From the IMG/VR virus record IMGVR_UViG_3300045988_060465, positions 1 through 48,878 of that record: a stretch of DNA of 48,878 nucleotides; one strand, 5' to 3'. Source of the stretch: a virus. Of this stretch, positions 1-48,878 are shown piece after piece; positions within the stretch are counted from its first letter, which is position 1, and every line of letters begins with the position of its first letter. The notes beneath the pieces are model-generated. The model saw only the letters and a program-made list of their open reading frames with translations, did not search any database and was not told the DNA's origin. The position numbers and the translations under genes were made by a program.

Positions 1-99
1 GCAAGCGCATATATATTTATGCCTTTATTCCATAAACAATTTAAAATCATGCAAAGAGTTATAAAAGAGTTATAATTATTTATGCAAGAAGAAAAAAGA
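1..99. repeat. Terminal direct duplication; bases 1..99 are identical to 48780..48878
   Basis: Exact 99-nt identity between the window start and end. Most likely a circular-assembly overlap of a complete genome. Confidence 0.9.
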
Positions 100-972: not shown

Positions 973-1479
973 CTACCAATCAATTTTAATACTAGTCAGT
1001 ACATAGTCCCAACTAGTTCCATAGTGTTGTACACCCCAAAGATACATATCAAGTTTTTCATTATAATAAACTATTTCATCAATGTCTTGTAGCAGTCTAG
1101 CGCCCCAACCATCCACAATGAACCACTGAAATACCTCCGGTTCGTCGTCTTGTTCGTTTTCTAATTCTTCTATCTTTTCATTTATTTTATCTATTTCATT
1201 TTCAATAATTTGTGATGGGCTATTTTCGTTTTCTTCTTCTAACTCTTCCCTTTTTTCTTCTAGTTCTTCTATCTCGTCCGTGTTGTCAATAGTACCGCTT
1301 ACTTGCTCCCATGAACCTATATCATATGTCAATGAAATTATATCATTGTTTAACACGGCATCGAAACATTTCGACAATGTAGCATAGTCTACGCGCCCAT
1401 TCTCTAAACCGTATTCACTAATAGCATTTCCATAATAGTATTTTTGATTTTTCATTTTCTTTTTTAGCCCTAGTTCCAT
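973..1479 (-). CDS. Hypothetical acidic coiled-coil protein, 168 aa
   Basis: ORF downstream of a near-consensus minus-strand promoter at 1653..1681, with an E/D-rich central segment. Function unknown; the position just before terS is where late regulators often sit. Confidence 0.45.
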   Translation of the reverse strand: MELGLKKKMKNQKYYYGNAISEYGLENGRVDYATLSKCFDAVLNNDIISLTYDIGSWEQVSGTIDNTDEIEELEEKREELEEENENSPSQIIENEIDKINEKIEELENEQDDEPEVFQWFIVDGWGARLLQDIDEIVYYNEKLDMYLWGVQHYGTSWDYVLTSIKIDW

Positions 1480-1486
1480 ATATTTA

Positions 1487-1495
1487 TGGTATAAT
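1487..1495 (+). promoter_or_regulatory. Extended -10 element TGGTATAAT on the plus strand
   Basis: TGnTATAAT overlapping the start codon region of the minus gene 973..1479. It would drive a short plus-strand RNA that ends at the 1563..1611 terminator. Confidence 0.35.
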
Positions 1496-1562
1496 ATGAA
1501 AGCTATATATCTTGAGGGCCTTTTACCTCGTTTCTATTAATATATATATAGCTTTTGTAATT

Positions 1563-1611
1563 GCATGATCGTGTAAGCTGCTAAACTTTATAACACGATC
1601 GTGCTTTTTTT
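1563..1611 (+). terminator. Rho-independent terminator on the plus strand
   Basis: 12-bp stem gcatgatcgtgt/acacgatcgtgc (one G-U pair) with a 20-nt loop, followed by TTTTTTT. Confidence 0.55.
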
Positions 1612-1652
1612 ATGTCTTATTTTTGGTAGTCACCCCTTTTCTTTACACTGTT

Positions 1653-1681
1653 ATTATACCATGATACCTATATAATATCAA
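1653..1681 (-). promoter_or_regulatory. Sigma-A type promoter on the minus strand (TTGATA-17-TGGTATAAT)
   Basis: The reverse complement reads TTGATA, 17 nt, TATAAT with a TG extension. It drives 973..1479. Confidence 0.6.
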
Positions 1682-1699
1682 GCTTTTTTTCACTTTTTG

Positions 1700-1714
1700 T
1701 TCACGAATCGTGAA
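1700..1714. promoter_or_regulatory. Perfect 15-bp palindrome TTCACGAATCGTGAA, a candidate operator
   Basis: Exact dyad about 25 bp upstream of the -35 of the 1653..1681 promoter. TCGTGAA/TTCAC half-sites recur at about 1762 and 1914, and six ACAAAAT repeats lie at 1774..1850. Confidence 0.4.
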
Positions 1715-1945
1715 TATAATAGCGGATATTTTCGTACTACACCGTGTTTTTGTCTACAAATCGTGAACAATTTACAAAATGCAAAATATACAAAATACAA
1801 AATTTTTCGCCGATTCAGGACTACAAAATACAAAATTTATTTTTTATATTGACAAAATTTTCTTTTTGGAACACTTAAAATGCCCTTTATTTAAAGGAAA
1901 TGCGTTTATTTTTGTTCACAAATGATTATTAAAGCAAATAAAACA

Positions 1946-2736
1946 ATAAAAAAACCCATCAAAATTCATTAGAACTTGATAGGTAAATGAAACCAGTAAT
2001 AATAGTGTATATATCTTCTTCTTATAGGGTTTGGAAGGCTCTGTGGAGGACGTAGCTCCTTTTTCTTCTTTCCCCCCGAGGTCAAAACCCCTCTTTATCT
2101 CCCCCGAACCTCTTTCCTATTATATATATGTCGAGGGACTAAGATATATCGCTTTTTCAAAGATCAATCGTTTTAAAATATGCAGAATTACTTATAATAT
2201 AGGCTCTGTGTGCTCAATACAGAACCTTTTAAACCATACAATCGACAAGATATAGAATTAATAAAGAATTTCTAAAGGAGTATGAAATGAAATATCTGCC
2301 TATTCATTTCAGTAGTAGTATATGACTACGTGACAATTTATGAACCAACCTAAACCAATTTTGTGTAAACATTATGGAACTTATCGTGTTTATTACGCAT
2401 ATATGACTGTATGGACGTTTCTATATCTCTGAATTTACTTGTTTTTCTTCTTTTCCCCGACATCTGTTGTGATATAAGGGGTTATTTACACGTGTGCCAT
2501 TGCGATTGTAGGGGCTATTGCGTTCCTGGGGGCCATTGAAAACGTAGGGGATATTTTCTATTGAACCTCTAGGGGCACAAATTCTATTGCAACCTACCCC
2601 GTCAATTAAATATTGCACTTACACCTTTATAATATCCTCAGATTTCTCTGAGGCACTCTCAATAAAGAGTAAGTAGAAGTAAAAAATGTCTCGTTAGAAA
2701 GTGGCAATATTTGGTCTTTTTAGGTACTTCCTAACT
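1946..2736 (-). ncRNA. Candidate large structured noncoding RNA of about 790 nt
   Basis: Its own extended -10 promoter at 2743..2773, and a terminator (8-bp stem plus U7) at 1946..1983. There is no credible ORF on the transcribed strand. Patches of 50-55% GC sit in a 33% GC genome. Five iterated CAATRG...CCCCTA units and G-tracts give many potential long-range pairings, and there is a perfect 7-bp hairpin at 2639..2656. Confidence 0.4.
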
Positions 2737-2742
2737 ACATAT

Positions 2743-2773
2743 ATTATACCATTTTTAAGTGCGGACGTGTGAA
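2743..2773 (-). promoter_or_regulatory. Minus-strand promoter TTCACA-19-TGGTATAAT
   Basis: The reverse complement contains TGGTATAAT (extended -10) with TTCACA upstream. It starts the noncoding unit immediately after the terminator of the RHH gene. Confidence 0.5.
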
Positions 2774-2789
2774 AAAACCTATAAAAAAA

Positions 2790-2807
2790 GGCTATTTGTT
2801 GTTAGCC
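2790..2807 (-). terminator. Short hairpin plus U-tract terminator after the RHH gene
   Basis: ggcta...tagcc stem with the stop codon inside it, followed by UUUUUUU on the minus strand. Confidence 0.35.
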
Positions 2808-2995
2808 TCTTTCTTTTCTCTTTCTAAATCTTTTAAGATCAATTGTCTTACGTAATCTGCCTTGCTTGGCACTGAATTTAACTTTTCTAGAATCTCTTTA
2901 TTGTTCTTTGTCACGTATTTCAAGCAAATTTGACTTACGTTCTTTTTAGCATACTTATTGTTTGCTCTTAATCTTGCTTCACTGCTTTTTGCCAT
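2792..2995 (-). CDS. Small ribbon-helix-helix-like DNA-binding protein, 67 aa
   Basis: Pattern of N-terminal basic strand, helix, and KADYVRQLILKDL second helix, typical of Arc/CopG RHH proteins. Confidence 0.35.
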   Translation of the reverse strand: MAKSSEARLRANNKYAKKNVSQICLKYVTKNNKEILEKLNSVPSKADYVRQLILKDLEREKKEANNK

Positions 2996-3009
2996 AGTTT
3001 ACACCCCCT

Positions 3010-3231
3010 CTATTCCATAACATCAATGATATTTGACTTCGGCTGCCAAATACCTCGAACAAAAATAGCTTCTTCGTCCTCTGCTTCAACTTTATCGGTT
3101 TCGATAGTGGTTTCGTGGACGTTATTTCTGTAATATTCCACGTATTTTCCTAAATATTCAGGATTATCACAATACCTTCCGTTATGTCCGTAAACATAGC
3201 CATGTTCTTTTTCCCATTGTTCCTTAGTCAT
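3010..3231 (-). CDS. Hypothetical protein, 73 aa
   Basis: Small ORF in the early operon. Confidence 0.4.
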   Translation of the reverse strand: MTKEQWEKEHGYVYGHNGRYCDNPEYLGKYVEYYRNNVHETTIETDKVEAEDEEAIFVRGIWQPKSNIIDVME

Positions 3232-3257: not shown

Positions 3258-3506
3258 TTAATAACAGTTCTTTTCTTCCCATTCTGCGATTTCATCTGCA
3301 TCATCAATGATTTCGCCATCTTCGCAAACTAGCATTGTTTCTCTTGACCCATAATCGACAATCTGATAATTGTTAGGCAGTTCGTCTGCCCATAAATCCA
3401 CACCAAATAATTCAACATTGAAATCGTCTTTATATAATACGTTTGCTACTGCTTCTACGATTCCTGAATTTGTAAAACTGTGATACCCAATATGTACTTG
3501 CTTCAT
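3258..3506 (-). CDS. Hypothetical protein, 82 aa
   Basis: Small ORF downstream of the promoter at 3550..3586. Confidence 0.4.
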   Translation of the reverse strand: MKQVHIGYHSFTNSGIVEAVANVLYKDDFNVELFGVDLWADELPNNYQIVDYGSRETMLVCEDGEIIDDADEIAEWEEKNCY

Positions 3507-3549
3507 GTTATGCCCTCCTAAGTACCTAAGTACTTTTCTTTACACACAT

Positions 3550-3586
3550 AGTATATCATACCATGATACCTATGTAAATAATTAAT
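3550..3586 (-). promoter_or_regulatory. Minus-strand promoter (TTTACA-17-TATACT / TGGTATGAT)
   Basis: Shares an identical 16-nt box ATAGGTATCATGGTAT (3558..3573) with the promoter at 1653..1681 (1656..1671). Confidence 0.45.
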
Positions 3587-3742
3587 TTAATAAATTTTTA
3601 AATCCTTTTGCATAATAAAAAAGGCTAATTCCACATTCGCCTTTTAAACGTGTTTTTAGCCTTTTCTTTATTTACCCTAACAAATACTCATCTCAATCTA
3701 TTTCGCTTGTTAGAATCACTTCTAGACGTGTTTAAATTGATT

Positions 3743-4046: not shown

Positions 4047-4379
4047 TTAAATAATTCCTATTTGAGTTAATAATGCACATTTTACTTCTTTTGCTTCTTG
4101 CCAATCTAATTGCTTGATATGCCACTTAACATTTTCTCTATTGATCGTTAAGATTTGTTCCGCTTTTGCCATTCCGTACTCATATCCTGTATCAATCATT
4201 ACATGGCATGGCAAATCTGTTCTTTTTAAATTGCTAGTAATTGGAATTACATTTACTGTTTTACTCCCTTTATTCTGAATATCGTTTGAAATAACGATAC
4301 AAGGTCTCCTTTTATAAAGAATCGTATTACTATATTTTGGCAAGTCACACCAATAAATGTTATTGTTTAGGATTTTCAT
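4047..4379 (-). CDS. PemK/MazF-family toxin-like protein, 110 aa
   Basis: IYWCDL...KRRPCIVISND...VNVIPITSN...LPCHV...AEQILTI...L pattern matches the PemK/MazF fold signature. GGAGG RBS 7 nt upstream. Confidence 0.6.
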   Translation of the reverse strand: MKILNNNIYWCDLPKYSNTILYKRRPCIVISNDIQNKGSKTVNVIPITSNLKRTDLPCHVMIDTGYEYGMAKAEQILTINRENVKWHIKQLDWQEAKEVKCALLTQIGII

Positions 4380-4488
4380 AATGATAACCTCCTATCCTTC
4401 CTAATTTATCCTCTAAATTTCTGTTATGCTGCTTCAACCCGTATATTTTTCTATCTCTCTCGATTAAAGCCTGTTTAATTAATACCAT
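4360..4488 (-). CDS. Candidate 42-aa partner ORF overlapping the toxin start
   Basis: ATG ORF MVLIKQALIERDRKIYGLKQHNRNLEDKLGRIGGYHYENPKQ whose stop overlaps the toxin ATG by 20 nt. Weak RBS and no recognisable antitoxin fold. Confidence 0.2.
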   Translation of the reverse strand: MVLIKQALIERDRKIYGLKQHNRNLEDKLGRIGGYHYENPKQ

Positions 4489-20369: not shown

Positions 20370-20378
20370 ATTATACCA
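20370..20378 (-). promoter_or_regulatory. Extended -10 element (reverse complement ATGGTATAAT) in the lysin-int spacer
   Basis: Same TGGTATAAT box as the other minus-strand promoters, but with a weak -35. Embedded in TATAG-type repeats at 20355..20400. Confidence 0.3.
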
Positions 20379-48779: not shown

Positions 48780-48878
48780 GCAAGCGCATATATATTTATG
48801 CCTTTATTCCATAAACAATTTAAAATCATGCAAAGAGTTATAAAAGAGTTATAATTATTTATGCAAGAAGAAAAAAGA
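48780..48878. repeat. Second copy of the 99-nt terminal duplication
   Basis: Identical to 1..99. Confidence 0.9.

What the first reader, a model, noticed from the sequence alone, without database searches (positions are those of the whole stretch)
1946..2807. Candidate large structured ncRNA with GC-rich iterated repeats
A 1.3-kb stretch between the early and late modules has no credible ORF. Even so, it carries a consensus-like promoter (reverse-complement TTCACA...TGGTATAAT at 2743..2773) placed directly after the terminator of the upstream RHH gene. It also has a clean intrinsic terminator 790 nt downstream (8-bp stem plus U7, 1946..1983). The transcribed strand shows 50-55% GC patches in a 33% GC genome. 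It has five degenerate CAATRG...CCCCTA(C/G) units (2460..2600), further G-tracts (GAGGGGTT and CCUCGGGGGG at 2040..2110) that could pair with the C-tracts, and a perfect 7-bp hairpin (2639..2656). Its size, phage context and GC enrichment recall ROOL/GOLLD-class ornate RNAs, but I cannot confirm membership. An alternative reading is a protein-binding iteron array, for example for packaging or ori.
Basis: partly seen in the sequence, partly recalled or inferred. Interest (0 to 1): 0.75.

Follow-up and report, generated by a model that had tools for sequence, protein, structure and literature searches.

The report
Conserved long noncoding RNA, gut phage
A gene-free 0.8-kb stretch of a human-gut (Holdemanella) phage looks like a separately transcribed, strongly conserved non-coding RNA gene matching no described RNA family, though only a few hairpins are supported, transcription is unmeasured and its job is unknown.

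Summary
Window 1480-2791 is a 1.3-kb gap with no ORF in a complete 48.9-kb temperate siphophage, whose prophage relative sits in a Holdemanella MAG.

I recovered 84 distinct copies from human-gut viromes and metagenomes. Across them, 2791-1690 is as conserved as codon position 2 of the flanking genes (column identity 0.92-0.96, against 0.77 at codon position 3). No reading frame is conserved.

Two 5' hairpins show two-sided covariation. One of them always carries a GNRA loop. All one-sided changes are G-U-compatible on the minus strand only. This supports a minus-strand RNA of about 0.79 kb.

It is not ROOL or GOLLD, because Rfam finds nothing in the window or in relatives. A large ornate fold is not supported either. 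Only local hairpins recur, and the G-tract/C-tract pairings are compatible with the data but unproven.

The repeat array is a hypervariable mosaic of cassettes. In 26 of 84 copies a NUMOD4/HNH homing endonuclease gene sits just upstream of it.

My best reading is a new, clade-restricted family of phage long ncRNA at the early/late junction. Its function is inferred, not shown.

The parts
2783..2814 (-). Intrinsic terminator of the upstream 67-aa gene (2792-2995). It can act in both directions and insulates the RNA unit from early transcription.
   Evidence: The terminator scan lists it on both strands. It is conserved in relatives.
2743..2773 (-). Promoter of the RNA. Extended -10 TGGTATAAT at 2751-2743. 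A -35-like TTCACA at 2773-2768 sits at a 19-nt spacing. Predicted start is near 2736-2738.
   Evidence: 4 copies of TGGTATAAT against 0.7 expected. Column identity is 0.95 over 2791-2745. The start site is inferred.
2693..2735 (-). P1: a 10-bp hairpin that begins 2-4 nt after the predicted 5' end, with a conserved 23-nt loop (..AGACCAAAUAUUGCC..).
   Evidence: Three pairs change on both sides. It is 100% paired in 57 sequences, and at least five haplotypes are all paired. Mean pair probability is 0.96.
2636..2670 (-). P2 (ACUC/GAGU, 2670-2667 with 2658-2655, variable loop) and P3 (7 bp, 2653-2647 with 2642-2636, GNRA loop).
   Evidence: In P3 the pair 2647:2642 is G-C in 30 and A-U in 27 sequences. 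Loops are GAAA, GAGA or GCAA.
2593..2609 (-). Polymorphic insertion site of a 218-aa NUMOD4 + HNH_3 homing endonuclease gene. The gene is absent from this window and present in 26 of 84 relatives, on the RNA strand with its own ribosome-binding site.
   Evidence: Fourteen of the 25 copies with the canonical start keep a full-length frame.
2462..2600 (-). Hypervariable cassette array. (Y)GCAAYRG anchors are conserved. The C-rich spacers exist as 2-4 alternative alleles that are reshuffled among phages. It is flanked by G-tracts at 2600-2597 and 2458-2455.
   Evidence: (79 haplotypes among 84 copies). It is not coding.
2201..2461 (-). AU-rich, nearly invariant core. Hairpins: H3 (2329-2312), H4 (2310-2284), H5 (2227-2201). 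Candidate long-range helices: 2414-2405 with 2243-2234, and 2461-2455 with 2136-2130.
   Evidence: Column identity is 0.94 over 2461-2140. H4 shows A-U to G-U in 15 sequences. The H5 stem is invariant while its loop is 4 or 9 nt. H3 swaps GUAGU/ACUAC for GUUGA/UCGAC. The long-range helix shows G-U to A-U in 17 sequences.
2026..2136 (-). G-box and polypurine 3' domain. UCGGGG-purine boxes lie at 2107-2096 and 2079-2068, with a third at 2460-2449. CCUCC and CCUUCC tracts lie at 2049-2045 and 2038-2033.
   Evidence: The boxes are found only here. Column identity is 0.96. The helices are 97.7% compatible with pairing, but the only changes are G-C to G-U.
1947..1984 (-). Intrinsic terminator of the RNA: stem 1983-1976 with 1962-1955, then U7.
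   Evidence: 99.8% paired; mean pair probability 0.91.
1653..1945 (-). Conserved control region downstream of the RNA. It holds the palindrome TTCACGAATCGTGAA (1700-1714) with two degenerate copies, ATTTTGTATTTTGTA repeats (1773-1838), and a second strong promoter TTGATA-17-TGgTATAAT (1681-1653) facing the 168-aa gene and, about 2.9 kb further on, terS.
   Evidence: Column identity is 0.93 over 1945-1690 and falls to 0.74 downstream of this promoter's -35 box (1689-1480).

Best explanation
The interval is the body of an independently transcribed non-coding RNA gene of about 0.79 kb on the minus strand. It starts near 2736 and ends at the terminator 1984-1947. It belongs to a clade of temperate Holdemanella (Erysipelotrichaceae) siphophages found repeatedly in human-gut metagenomes and sits between the early and late gene blocks.

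The RNA is modular:
- a 5' domain of three hairpins, one at the very 5' end and one GNRA-capped;
- a hypervariable cassette array with conserved GCAAYRG anchors;
- a nearly invariant AU-rich core with a few hairpins;
- a G-box/polypurine 3' domain;
- an intrinsic terminator.

Inferred mechanism, not shown. The 5'-terminal hairpin and the 3' terminator make the transcript stable. It then acts in trans as a scaffold or decoy. It would present repeated, mostly single-stranded motifs (GCAAYRG loops, SD-like purine boxes, a CUCCUUU anti-SD-like box) to a protein or nucleic-acid partner around the early-to-late switch or in the lysogen.

It is a new RNA family, not a ROOL or GOLLD relative.

The stated confidence is for the whole statement. 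I put about 0.8 on it being a functional minus-strand RNA gene and about 0.2-0.25 on the trans-acting scaffold or decoy role.
For: Shown by tool results:
- No conserved ORF in any frame.
- An extended -10 promoter and terminators on both sides.
- 84 distinct copies, with 2791-1690 at column identity 0.92-0.96 and 67-79% invariant sites. Codon position 3 of the neighbouring genes gives 0.77 and about 20%.
- P1 and P3 covary: 4 pairs and 83 cells with two-sided changes, 0 of 500 shuffles as high, and slid controls at 27 or fewer. They are also the top mutual-information pairs.
- P3 retains a GNRA loop.
- All one-sided changes are G-U-compatible on the minus strand only.
- The minus strand folds better than its shuffles (z -1.69, 0 of 20), while the plus strand does not (z +0.36).
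- Hairpin stems stay fixed while loops change in length or sequence.
- In the 26 copies that carry it, the homing endonuclease gene lies on the same strand just after the 5' domain. It may be expressed from the same promoter, which is inferred.
- The prophage copy in a Holdemanella MAG shows the position relative to terS.
Against: - There are no expression data, so transcription and the RNA ends are inferred.
- Only the first 100 nt or so show two-sided covariation. The core is too invariant to test, and no long-range structure is predicted consistently.
- The core has genome-like GC of about 0.30, which is unusual for a stably folded RNA.
- A 660-nt gene insertion is tolerated inside the transcript.
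- One natural variant lacks the array and one lacks the 3' domain.
- The trans-acting scaffold role has no direct evidence and no partner has been identified.
Confidence: 0.45

Rival explanations
1. An RNA-primed or transcription-activated replication origin. The transcript forms a persistent R-loop at its purine- and G-cluster-rich 3' part. It would prime or open the adjacent AT-rich repeat region (1690-1945), as with ColE1 RNA II, the phage T4 R-loop origins, or the RNA-based prophage origins of mycobacteriophages.
For: - G-clusters and polypurine boxes lie on the non-template strand.
- They are followed by a terminator, then AT-rich direct repeats and palindromic boxes.
- The 5' stem-loops resemble the RNA I target region of RNA II.
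- A conserved plus-strand TATAAT at 2628-2633, read directly from the sequence, together with the bidirectional terminator, could give a countertranscript.
- There is precedent for phage RNA-based origins of about 0.4-0.5 kb (PMC7157519).
Against: - The phage has an integrase and a conventional replication module: an HTH_36 protein next to a G39P-type loader (the presumed initiator), plus SSB. The origin is normally expected inside that module.
- The plus-strand promoter has no acceptable -35 box and was not found by the scan.
- An R-loop role does not explain the hypervariable array or the 330-nt invariant core.
Confidence: 0.15
2. A cis-acting leader of the late operon. A constitutive promoter makes a terminated leader RNA, as with lambda PR'-tR' 6S RNA or StxS. 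Late genes would be expressed when a phage factor, or the 5' hairpins themselves (as with HK022 put), make RNA polymerase read through the terminator.
For: - It lies immediately upstream of the late block, in the same orientation as all genes.
- It has a strong promoter, a terminator, and hairpins directly after the start site.
Against: - A second near-consensus promoter with its own operator-like sites sits between the terminator and the first downstream gene. Read-through is therefore not needed.
- A leader does not need 0.8 kb of near-invariant sequence.
- No Q-like or other antiterminator was recognised among the neighbours.
Confidence: 0.15
3. A purely DNA-level element: a dense block of protein-binding sites (iterons, operators, or packaging or partition sites) with no functional RNA.
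For: - There are repeats, palindromes and three strong promoters within 1.3 kb.
- Conservation extends over promoter and operator DNA as well.
Against: - Compensatory changes and a G-U-only substitution pattern point to RNA pairing on one strand.
- The repeat array is the least conserved part, is irregularly spaced, and is not linked to the clade of the adjacent small protein.
- terS is Terminase_2 (SPP1-like). In that type the pac site lies at terS, which is 2.9 kb away (the pac location is established knowledge).
- Continuous 95% conservation over 1.1 kb is more than binding sites require.
Confidence: 0.1
4. A member of the ROOL/GOLLD class of ornate, multimer-forming phage RNAs.
For: Phage context, a size of about 0.8 kb, local GC enrichment, and a GNRA loop.
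Against: - No Rfam match in the window at gathering score or at E<=10, and none at gathering score in five relatives.
- No tRNA neighbours.
- Few helices, little covariation, and an AU-rich core.
Confidence: 0.02

Closest known systems
ROOL (RF03087) and GOLLD (RF01998) large prophage-associated RNAs
   Same: A long non-coding RNA encoded by phages or prophages of Bacillota, with no known function. It is an independent unit inside the phage genome.
   Different: There is no sequence or structure match and no tRNA association. It has far fewer helices, an AU-rich invariant core, a hypervariable cassette array, and is confined to one narrow phage clade.
Lambda PR'-tR' 6S RNA and its derivative StxS in Shiga-toxin phages
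   Same: A constitutive-looking promoter plus a terminator just upstream of the late genes. A short-stop transcript of this kind can act as a regulatory RNA in the lysogen.
   Different: It is four times longer and conserved at the nucleotide level throughout. A second promoter follows the terminator. No Q-type antiterminator was found.
ColE1 RNA II, and the RNA-based prophage origins of cluster A mycobacteriophages (Wetzel et al. 2020, PMC7157519)
   Same: A non-coding transcript of about 0.5 kb with 5' stem-loops and a G-rich segment, next to AT-rich DNA.
   Different: This phage integrates and has a protein-based replication module. No antisense partner or origin activity has been shown.
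Decoy or sponge RNAs such as CsrB/RsmZ (recalled from my own knowledge)
   Same: One short motif in many copies, partly displayed in hairpin loops. An example is the CAAUAGAAA loop of the first array hairpin.
   Different: The motif (GCAAYRG) matches no known binding site. The copies sit in a hypervariable region, and no partner protein is known.
Free-standing HNH homing endonucleases of phages (I-HmuI, Seg and Mob types; recalled from my own knowledge)
   Same: A NUMOD4 + HNH_3 gene is present or absent at one fixed intergenic site, and many copies are decayed.
   Different: This applies only to the insertion, which is absent from this window. Here the host site lies inside a putative RNA gene, not between protein genes or in an intron.

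Membership tests
ROOL / GOLLD (also OLE, HEARO, raiA and every other Rfam 15 family) | Match to the family covariance model at or above the gathering score | tested here: not met
   There were 0 matches in the whole window. At E<=10 in 1400-3100 there were only four chance-level hits (mir-711, STnc430, mir-4000, MEG8_3), all far below gathering score. There were 0 matches in five relatives.
ROOL / GOLLD | Many covariation-supported helices forming an ornate multi-domain fold | tested here: not met
   Two-sided covariation appears only in P1 and P3. Only six local hairpins are predicted consistently across 57 copies.
ROOL / GOLLD | Frequent neighbourhood of tRNA genes in prophages | tested here: not met
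   ARAGORN finds no tRNA or tmRNA in the 48.9-kb genome.
Group I intron carrying a homing endonuclease | Ribozyme core and an interrupted host gene | tested here: not met
   There is no Intron_gpI hit. No reading frame is restored by removing the region. The endonuclease gene is free-standing.
ColE1-type RNA II primer / RNA-based phage origin | Constitutive promoter, 5' stem-loops, and a G-rich RNA segment upstream of the origin | tested here: met
   Sequence features are present. This is a resemblance only.
ColE1-type RNA II primer / RNA-based phage origin | An antisense RNA I against the 5' stem-loops, and demonstrated origin activity | tested here: inconclusive
   There is only a lone plus-strand TATAAT at 2628-2633, read from the sequence, with no -35 box. 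The scan did not list it. Origin activity cannot be tested with these tools.
Iteron-type origin or centromere-like repeat array | Regularly spaced, conserved repeats matched to a cognate binding protein | tested here: not met
   Spacing is 18, 18 and 33 nt. There are 79 haplotypes among 84 copies. There is no association with the clade of the adjacent 67-aa protein. The motif is not enriched elsewhere in the genome.
Lambda-type late leader (PR'-tR') | The only promoter for the late operon, plus a Q-type antiterminator gene upstream | tested here: not met
   A second strong promoter lies at 1681-1653. No antiterminator family was found among the neighbours.
Protein-coding gene (including small or recoded ORFs) | A reading frame kept open in relatives | tested here: not met
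   Each frame across the array is open in only 8-9 of 84 copies. Stop codons of all three types occur in every frame. Indels are not multiples of three.

The most novel reading that the evidence does not exclude
This is the founding member of a new class of large functional phage RNA found in many human-gut metagenome assemblies. Its invariant core and G-box domain would carry out a defined job, such as priming or licensing replication, or titrating a host or phage factor at the lysis-lysogeny or early-late decision. Its cassette array would be under diversifying selection, for instance as a decoy against a sequence-specific host defence or as the target zone in an arms race with the adjacent homing endonuclease.
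Probability: 0.3. Interest if true: 0.8.

Novelty: new member of a known kind. Interest (0 to 1): 0.55.

Why it matters
Large bacterial and phage non-coding RNAs are rare, and almost none has a known function. This candidate has several practical advantages:
- It comes from a phage clade seen in many human-gut assemblies. The neighbouring 168-aa protein alone has 2,688 relatives in metagenomes.
- Its promoter and terminator are clearly defined.
- Its strand is identified by substitution patterns.
- Natural presence/absence variants exist for an inserted gene and for two RNA domains.

These features make it a tractable case for asking what a phage long ncRNA does at the early/late boundary. If the array is under diversifying selection, it would also be an unusual example of a hypervariable module inside a conserved RNA.

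Tried and rejected
- **Rfam.** Searched at gathering score and at E<=10 in the window, and at gathering score in five relatives. Nothing was found.
- **Cultured phages.** DNA similarity to cultured phages gave no match. The closest cultured terL is Lactococcus P087-like at 27% identity.
- **Coding potential.** This included the 65-codon frame across the array, whose NxPY-like repeats looked suggestive. It was rejected because each frame is open in only 8-9 of 84 copies.
- **Stop-codon recoding.** Rejected. All three stop types occur in every frame, and the late genes read normally.
- **cos site at the G-rich segment.** Unlikely. terS is Terminase_2 and lies 2.9 kb away.
- **Long-range G-tract/C-tract helices and the 330-nt domain closure.** They are compatible with pairing but show no two-sided covariation.
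- **Antisense targets elsewhere in the genome.** Only a duplicated promoter segment turned up.
- **Co-variation of array type with the upstream protein or with the endonuclease.** None was found.
- **More distant homologues.** Protein-profile and DNA-pattern scans only returned the same clade.
- **The 'RHH' label of the upstream gene.** There is no Pfam or PDB match. A single-sequence AlphaFold model gives two helices and no strand.

Full report
**Context**

The window is a complete phage genome of 48,878 bp at 33.9% GC. A 99-bp direct repeat joins its two ends, probably an assembly overlap of a circular genome. Nearly all genes lie on the minus strand.

Gene annotation shows a temperate siphophage. 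The block runs from an integrase through an antirepressor, YqaJ/RecT, an HTH_36 protein with a G39P-type loader, SSB, methylases, dUTPase and a MazF-like gene. A 67-aa gene follows at 2792-2995, then the gap 1480-2791, then small genes of unknown function. Across the circular junction come terS (Terminase_2) and terL.

A prophage copy in an uncultured Holdemanella MAG has the same order, with terS about 2 kb after the gap. The element therefore sits at the early/late boundary, about 2.9 kb upstream of terS.

**Checking the observation**

- No frame is open for more than 75 codons, and all stop types occur in all frames.
- The -10 element TGGTATAAT (2751-2743, minus strand) is perfect. It is one of four copies in the genome against 0.7 expected, and three of the four are in this gap.
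- The TTCACA box is 19 nt away from the -10 hexamer, so this is an extended -10 promoter and not a full consensus. The generic scan did not list it.
- The upstream gene ends in a terminator at 2814-2783.
- The RNA terminator (1983-1976 with 1962-1955, then U7) is real and conserved.
- GC reaches 0.49 and 0.44 in two patches.
- The CAATRG...CCCCTA units are far beyond chance, with 3 exact matches against 0.02 expected.
- The 7-bp hairpin is at 2653-2636.

**Relatives and conservation**

Scans with the two flanking proteins, and with DNA patterns from the gap, recovered relatives only from human-gut viromes and metagenomes plus the one Holdemanella MAG. This gave 84 distinct copies of the region. 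There is no match among cultured phages at the DNA level. The closest cultured terL is 27% identical.

In 14 full-length alignable copies, column identity was as follows.

| Region | Column identity | Invariant sites |
|---|---|---|
| 2791-1690, excluding the array (five segments) | 0.92-0.96 | 67-79% |
| Codon position 2 of the two flanking genes | 0.90-0.94 | 63-72% |
| Codon position 3 of the two flanking genes | 0.76-0.78 | about 20% |
| Repeat array (2609-2462) | 0.82 | 33% |
| 1689-1480, downstream of the second promoter's -35 box | 0.74 | 19% |

About 1.1 kb of non-coding DNA is therefore under strong purifying selection.

**Not coding**

Indels are not multiples of three. The one suggestive frame is 65 codons long, crosses the array and shows NxPY-like repeats. 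It is fully open in only 8 of 84 copies, the same as the two control frames.

**Evidence for an RNA, and for its strand**

RNAalifold, a helix scan and mutual information all pick the same two elements.
- P1 (2735-2726 with 2702-2693) is 100% paired in 57 sequences. Three of its pairs change on both sides, and at least five haplotypes are all paired.
- In P3 (2653-2647 with 2642-2636), the pair 2647:2642 is G-C in 30 sequences and A-U in 27. The loop is always GNRA: GAAA, GAGA or GCAA.

For a nine-helix structure, 83 cells carry two-sided changes, against 33.7 in shuffles. None of 500 shuffles reached that number, and slid controls gave 27 or fewer.

Other helices show only one-sided changes, but every one of them is G-U-compatible.
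- H4: A-U to G-U in 15 sequences.
- The long-range helix 2414-2405 with 2243-2234: G-U to A-U in 17 sequences.
- H5: an invariant 9-bp stem with a loop of either 4 or 9 nt.
- H3: GUAGU/ACUAC replaced by GUUGA/UCGAC.

In one search, 258 of 3,705 cells are G-U. These would be C-A mismatches on the plus strand, so selection acts on a minus-strand RNA and not on a DNA palindrome. The minus strand also folds better than its shuffles (z -1.69, 0 of 20), while the plus strand does not (z +0.36).

**Limits of the structure claim**

Folding each of 57 copies separately and averaging the pair probabilities gives only six consistent elements: P1, P2, P3, H4, H5 and the terminator. They are 97.7% pair-compatible against 56-78% when slid. 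However, they show no two-sided change and do not differ from shuffles, because G pairs with both C and U.

The invariant core has genome-like GC. A large ornate fold is therefore not supported. It is also not excluded, because the core barely varies.

**The array and the endonuclease**

The array (2600-2462) is a mosaic. The (Y)GCAAYRG anchors are kept, while the spacers occur as a few alternative alleles recombined into 79 haplotypes among 84 copies. Individual foldings often put the first anchor in a hairpin loop. That hairpin has AGGGUG paired with CACCC, UGCCCU or CGCCCU, again G-U-compatible. They also often pair the flanking G-tracts with C-rich spacers.

Array type is not linked to the two clades of the upstream protein.

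In 26 of 84 copies, a 218-aa NUMOD4 + HNH_3 homing endonuclease gene lies on the RNA strand with its own ribosome-binding site. It replaces 2608 to about 2593, directly upstream of the array. Fourteen of the 25 copies with the canonical start keep a full-length frame and the other eleven are truncated, as expected for a cycling selfish gene.

One variant lacks the array and one lacks the 3' domain.

**What it is not**

Rfam 15 gives nothing at gathering score in the window or in five relatives. At E<=10 it gives only chance-level hits. There are no tRNAs.

The DNA-iteron reading is weakened by the irregular spacing, the hypervariability, the lack of linkage to the neighbouring protein, and the absence of the motifs elsewhere in the genome.

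**Most likely mechanism and rivals**

The data show an insulated, conserved, non-coding unit whose substitution pattern identifies a minus-strand RNA. Transcription itself has not been measured.

I infer a stable RNA, because it has a hairpin at the 5' end and a terminator at the 3' end. I infer that it acts in trans as a scaffold or decoy through its repeated single-stranded motifs.

Three rivals remain open.
- **RNA-primed or transcription-activated origin.** G-clusters and polypurine boxes are followed by AT-rich repeats and palindromes at 1690-1945. There is a precedent in mycobacteriophages (PMC7157519).
- **Terminated leader of the late operon.** This is weakened by the second strong promoter at 1681-1653.
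- **A purely DNA-level control region.**

Expression mapping, deeper covariation analysis and promoter-dead mutants would separate these.

**Verdict**

This is a real and strongly conserved element, best filed as a new family of phage-encoded long non-coding RNA. It is not a ROOL or GOLLD relative, and it has not been shown to be ornate. Its function is open.

Noticed in passing
window 2593-2609 (insertion site); e.g. L014:1298-1954, L031, L016: A 218-aa NUMOD4 + HNH_3 homing endonuclease gene is present at this exact site in 26 of 84 related copies, and eleven of the 25 copies with the canonical start are truncated or frameshifted. The window carries the empty site.
   Followed up: yes
window 1653-1945: Downstream of the RNA terminator lies a conserved control region. 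It holds a perfect 15-bp palindrome TTCACGAATCGTGAA (1700-1714) with degenerate copies at 1747-1767 and 1909-1929. It also holds three ATTTTGTATTTTGTA-type repeats (1773-1838) and a near-consensus promoter TTGATA-17-TGgTATAAT (1681-1653).
   Followed up: partly
window 3533-3590 and 1636-1681: About 40 nt of the second promoter and its initial transcribed region (ATAGGTATCATGGTATRAT...GTGTAAAGAAAAG) are duplicated upstream of the 82-aa gene at 3258-3506. This suggests a shared, phage-specific promoter type.
   Followed up: partly
window 1487-1495 (+) and 20370-20378 (-): There are two further exact TGGTATAAT boxes. One is on the plus strand and points into the gap from the left. It is not conserved in most relatives. 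The other is in the lysogeny region upstream of the integrase.
   Followed up: no
window 1-99 and 48780-48878: A 99-bp exact terminal direct repeat. The window is a complete, circularly closed phage genome.
   Followed up: yes
A single-sequence AlphaFold model (pLDDT 87) shows two helices and no strand, so the RHH label is unverified. Its relatives fall into two clades (60-100% identity), but the C-terminus DLEREKKEA is invariant (the full tail is DLEREKKEANNK in the window).
   Followed up: partly
window 973-1479 (-): The 168-aa acidic protein downstream has 2,688 relatives in public metagenomes. All are unnamed and none has a Pfam domain. It is a widespread gut-phage protein family of unknown function, and in some phages it occurs without this RNA region upstream.
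   Followed up: partly
window 2360-2373: A 12-nt tandem duplication polymorphism (TAATGTTTAYAC, one copy or two) lies inside the otherwise invariant core. A 10-nt insertion polymorphism lies near 2190.
   Followed up: no
L226 and L209 (relatives): There are natural deletion variants. L226 lacks window-equivalent 2600-2478 (the whole array) together with part of the endonuclease gene. L209 lacks 2077-1947 (the G-box domain and terminator).
   Followed up: no
window 4047-4379 (-): A MazF-like toxin gene (PHROG 1936, E 2e-19), with a small overlapping upstream ORF at 4360-4488 that could be its antitoxin.
   Followed up: no
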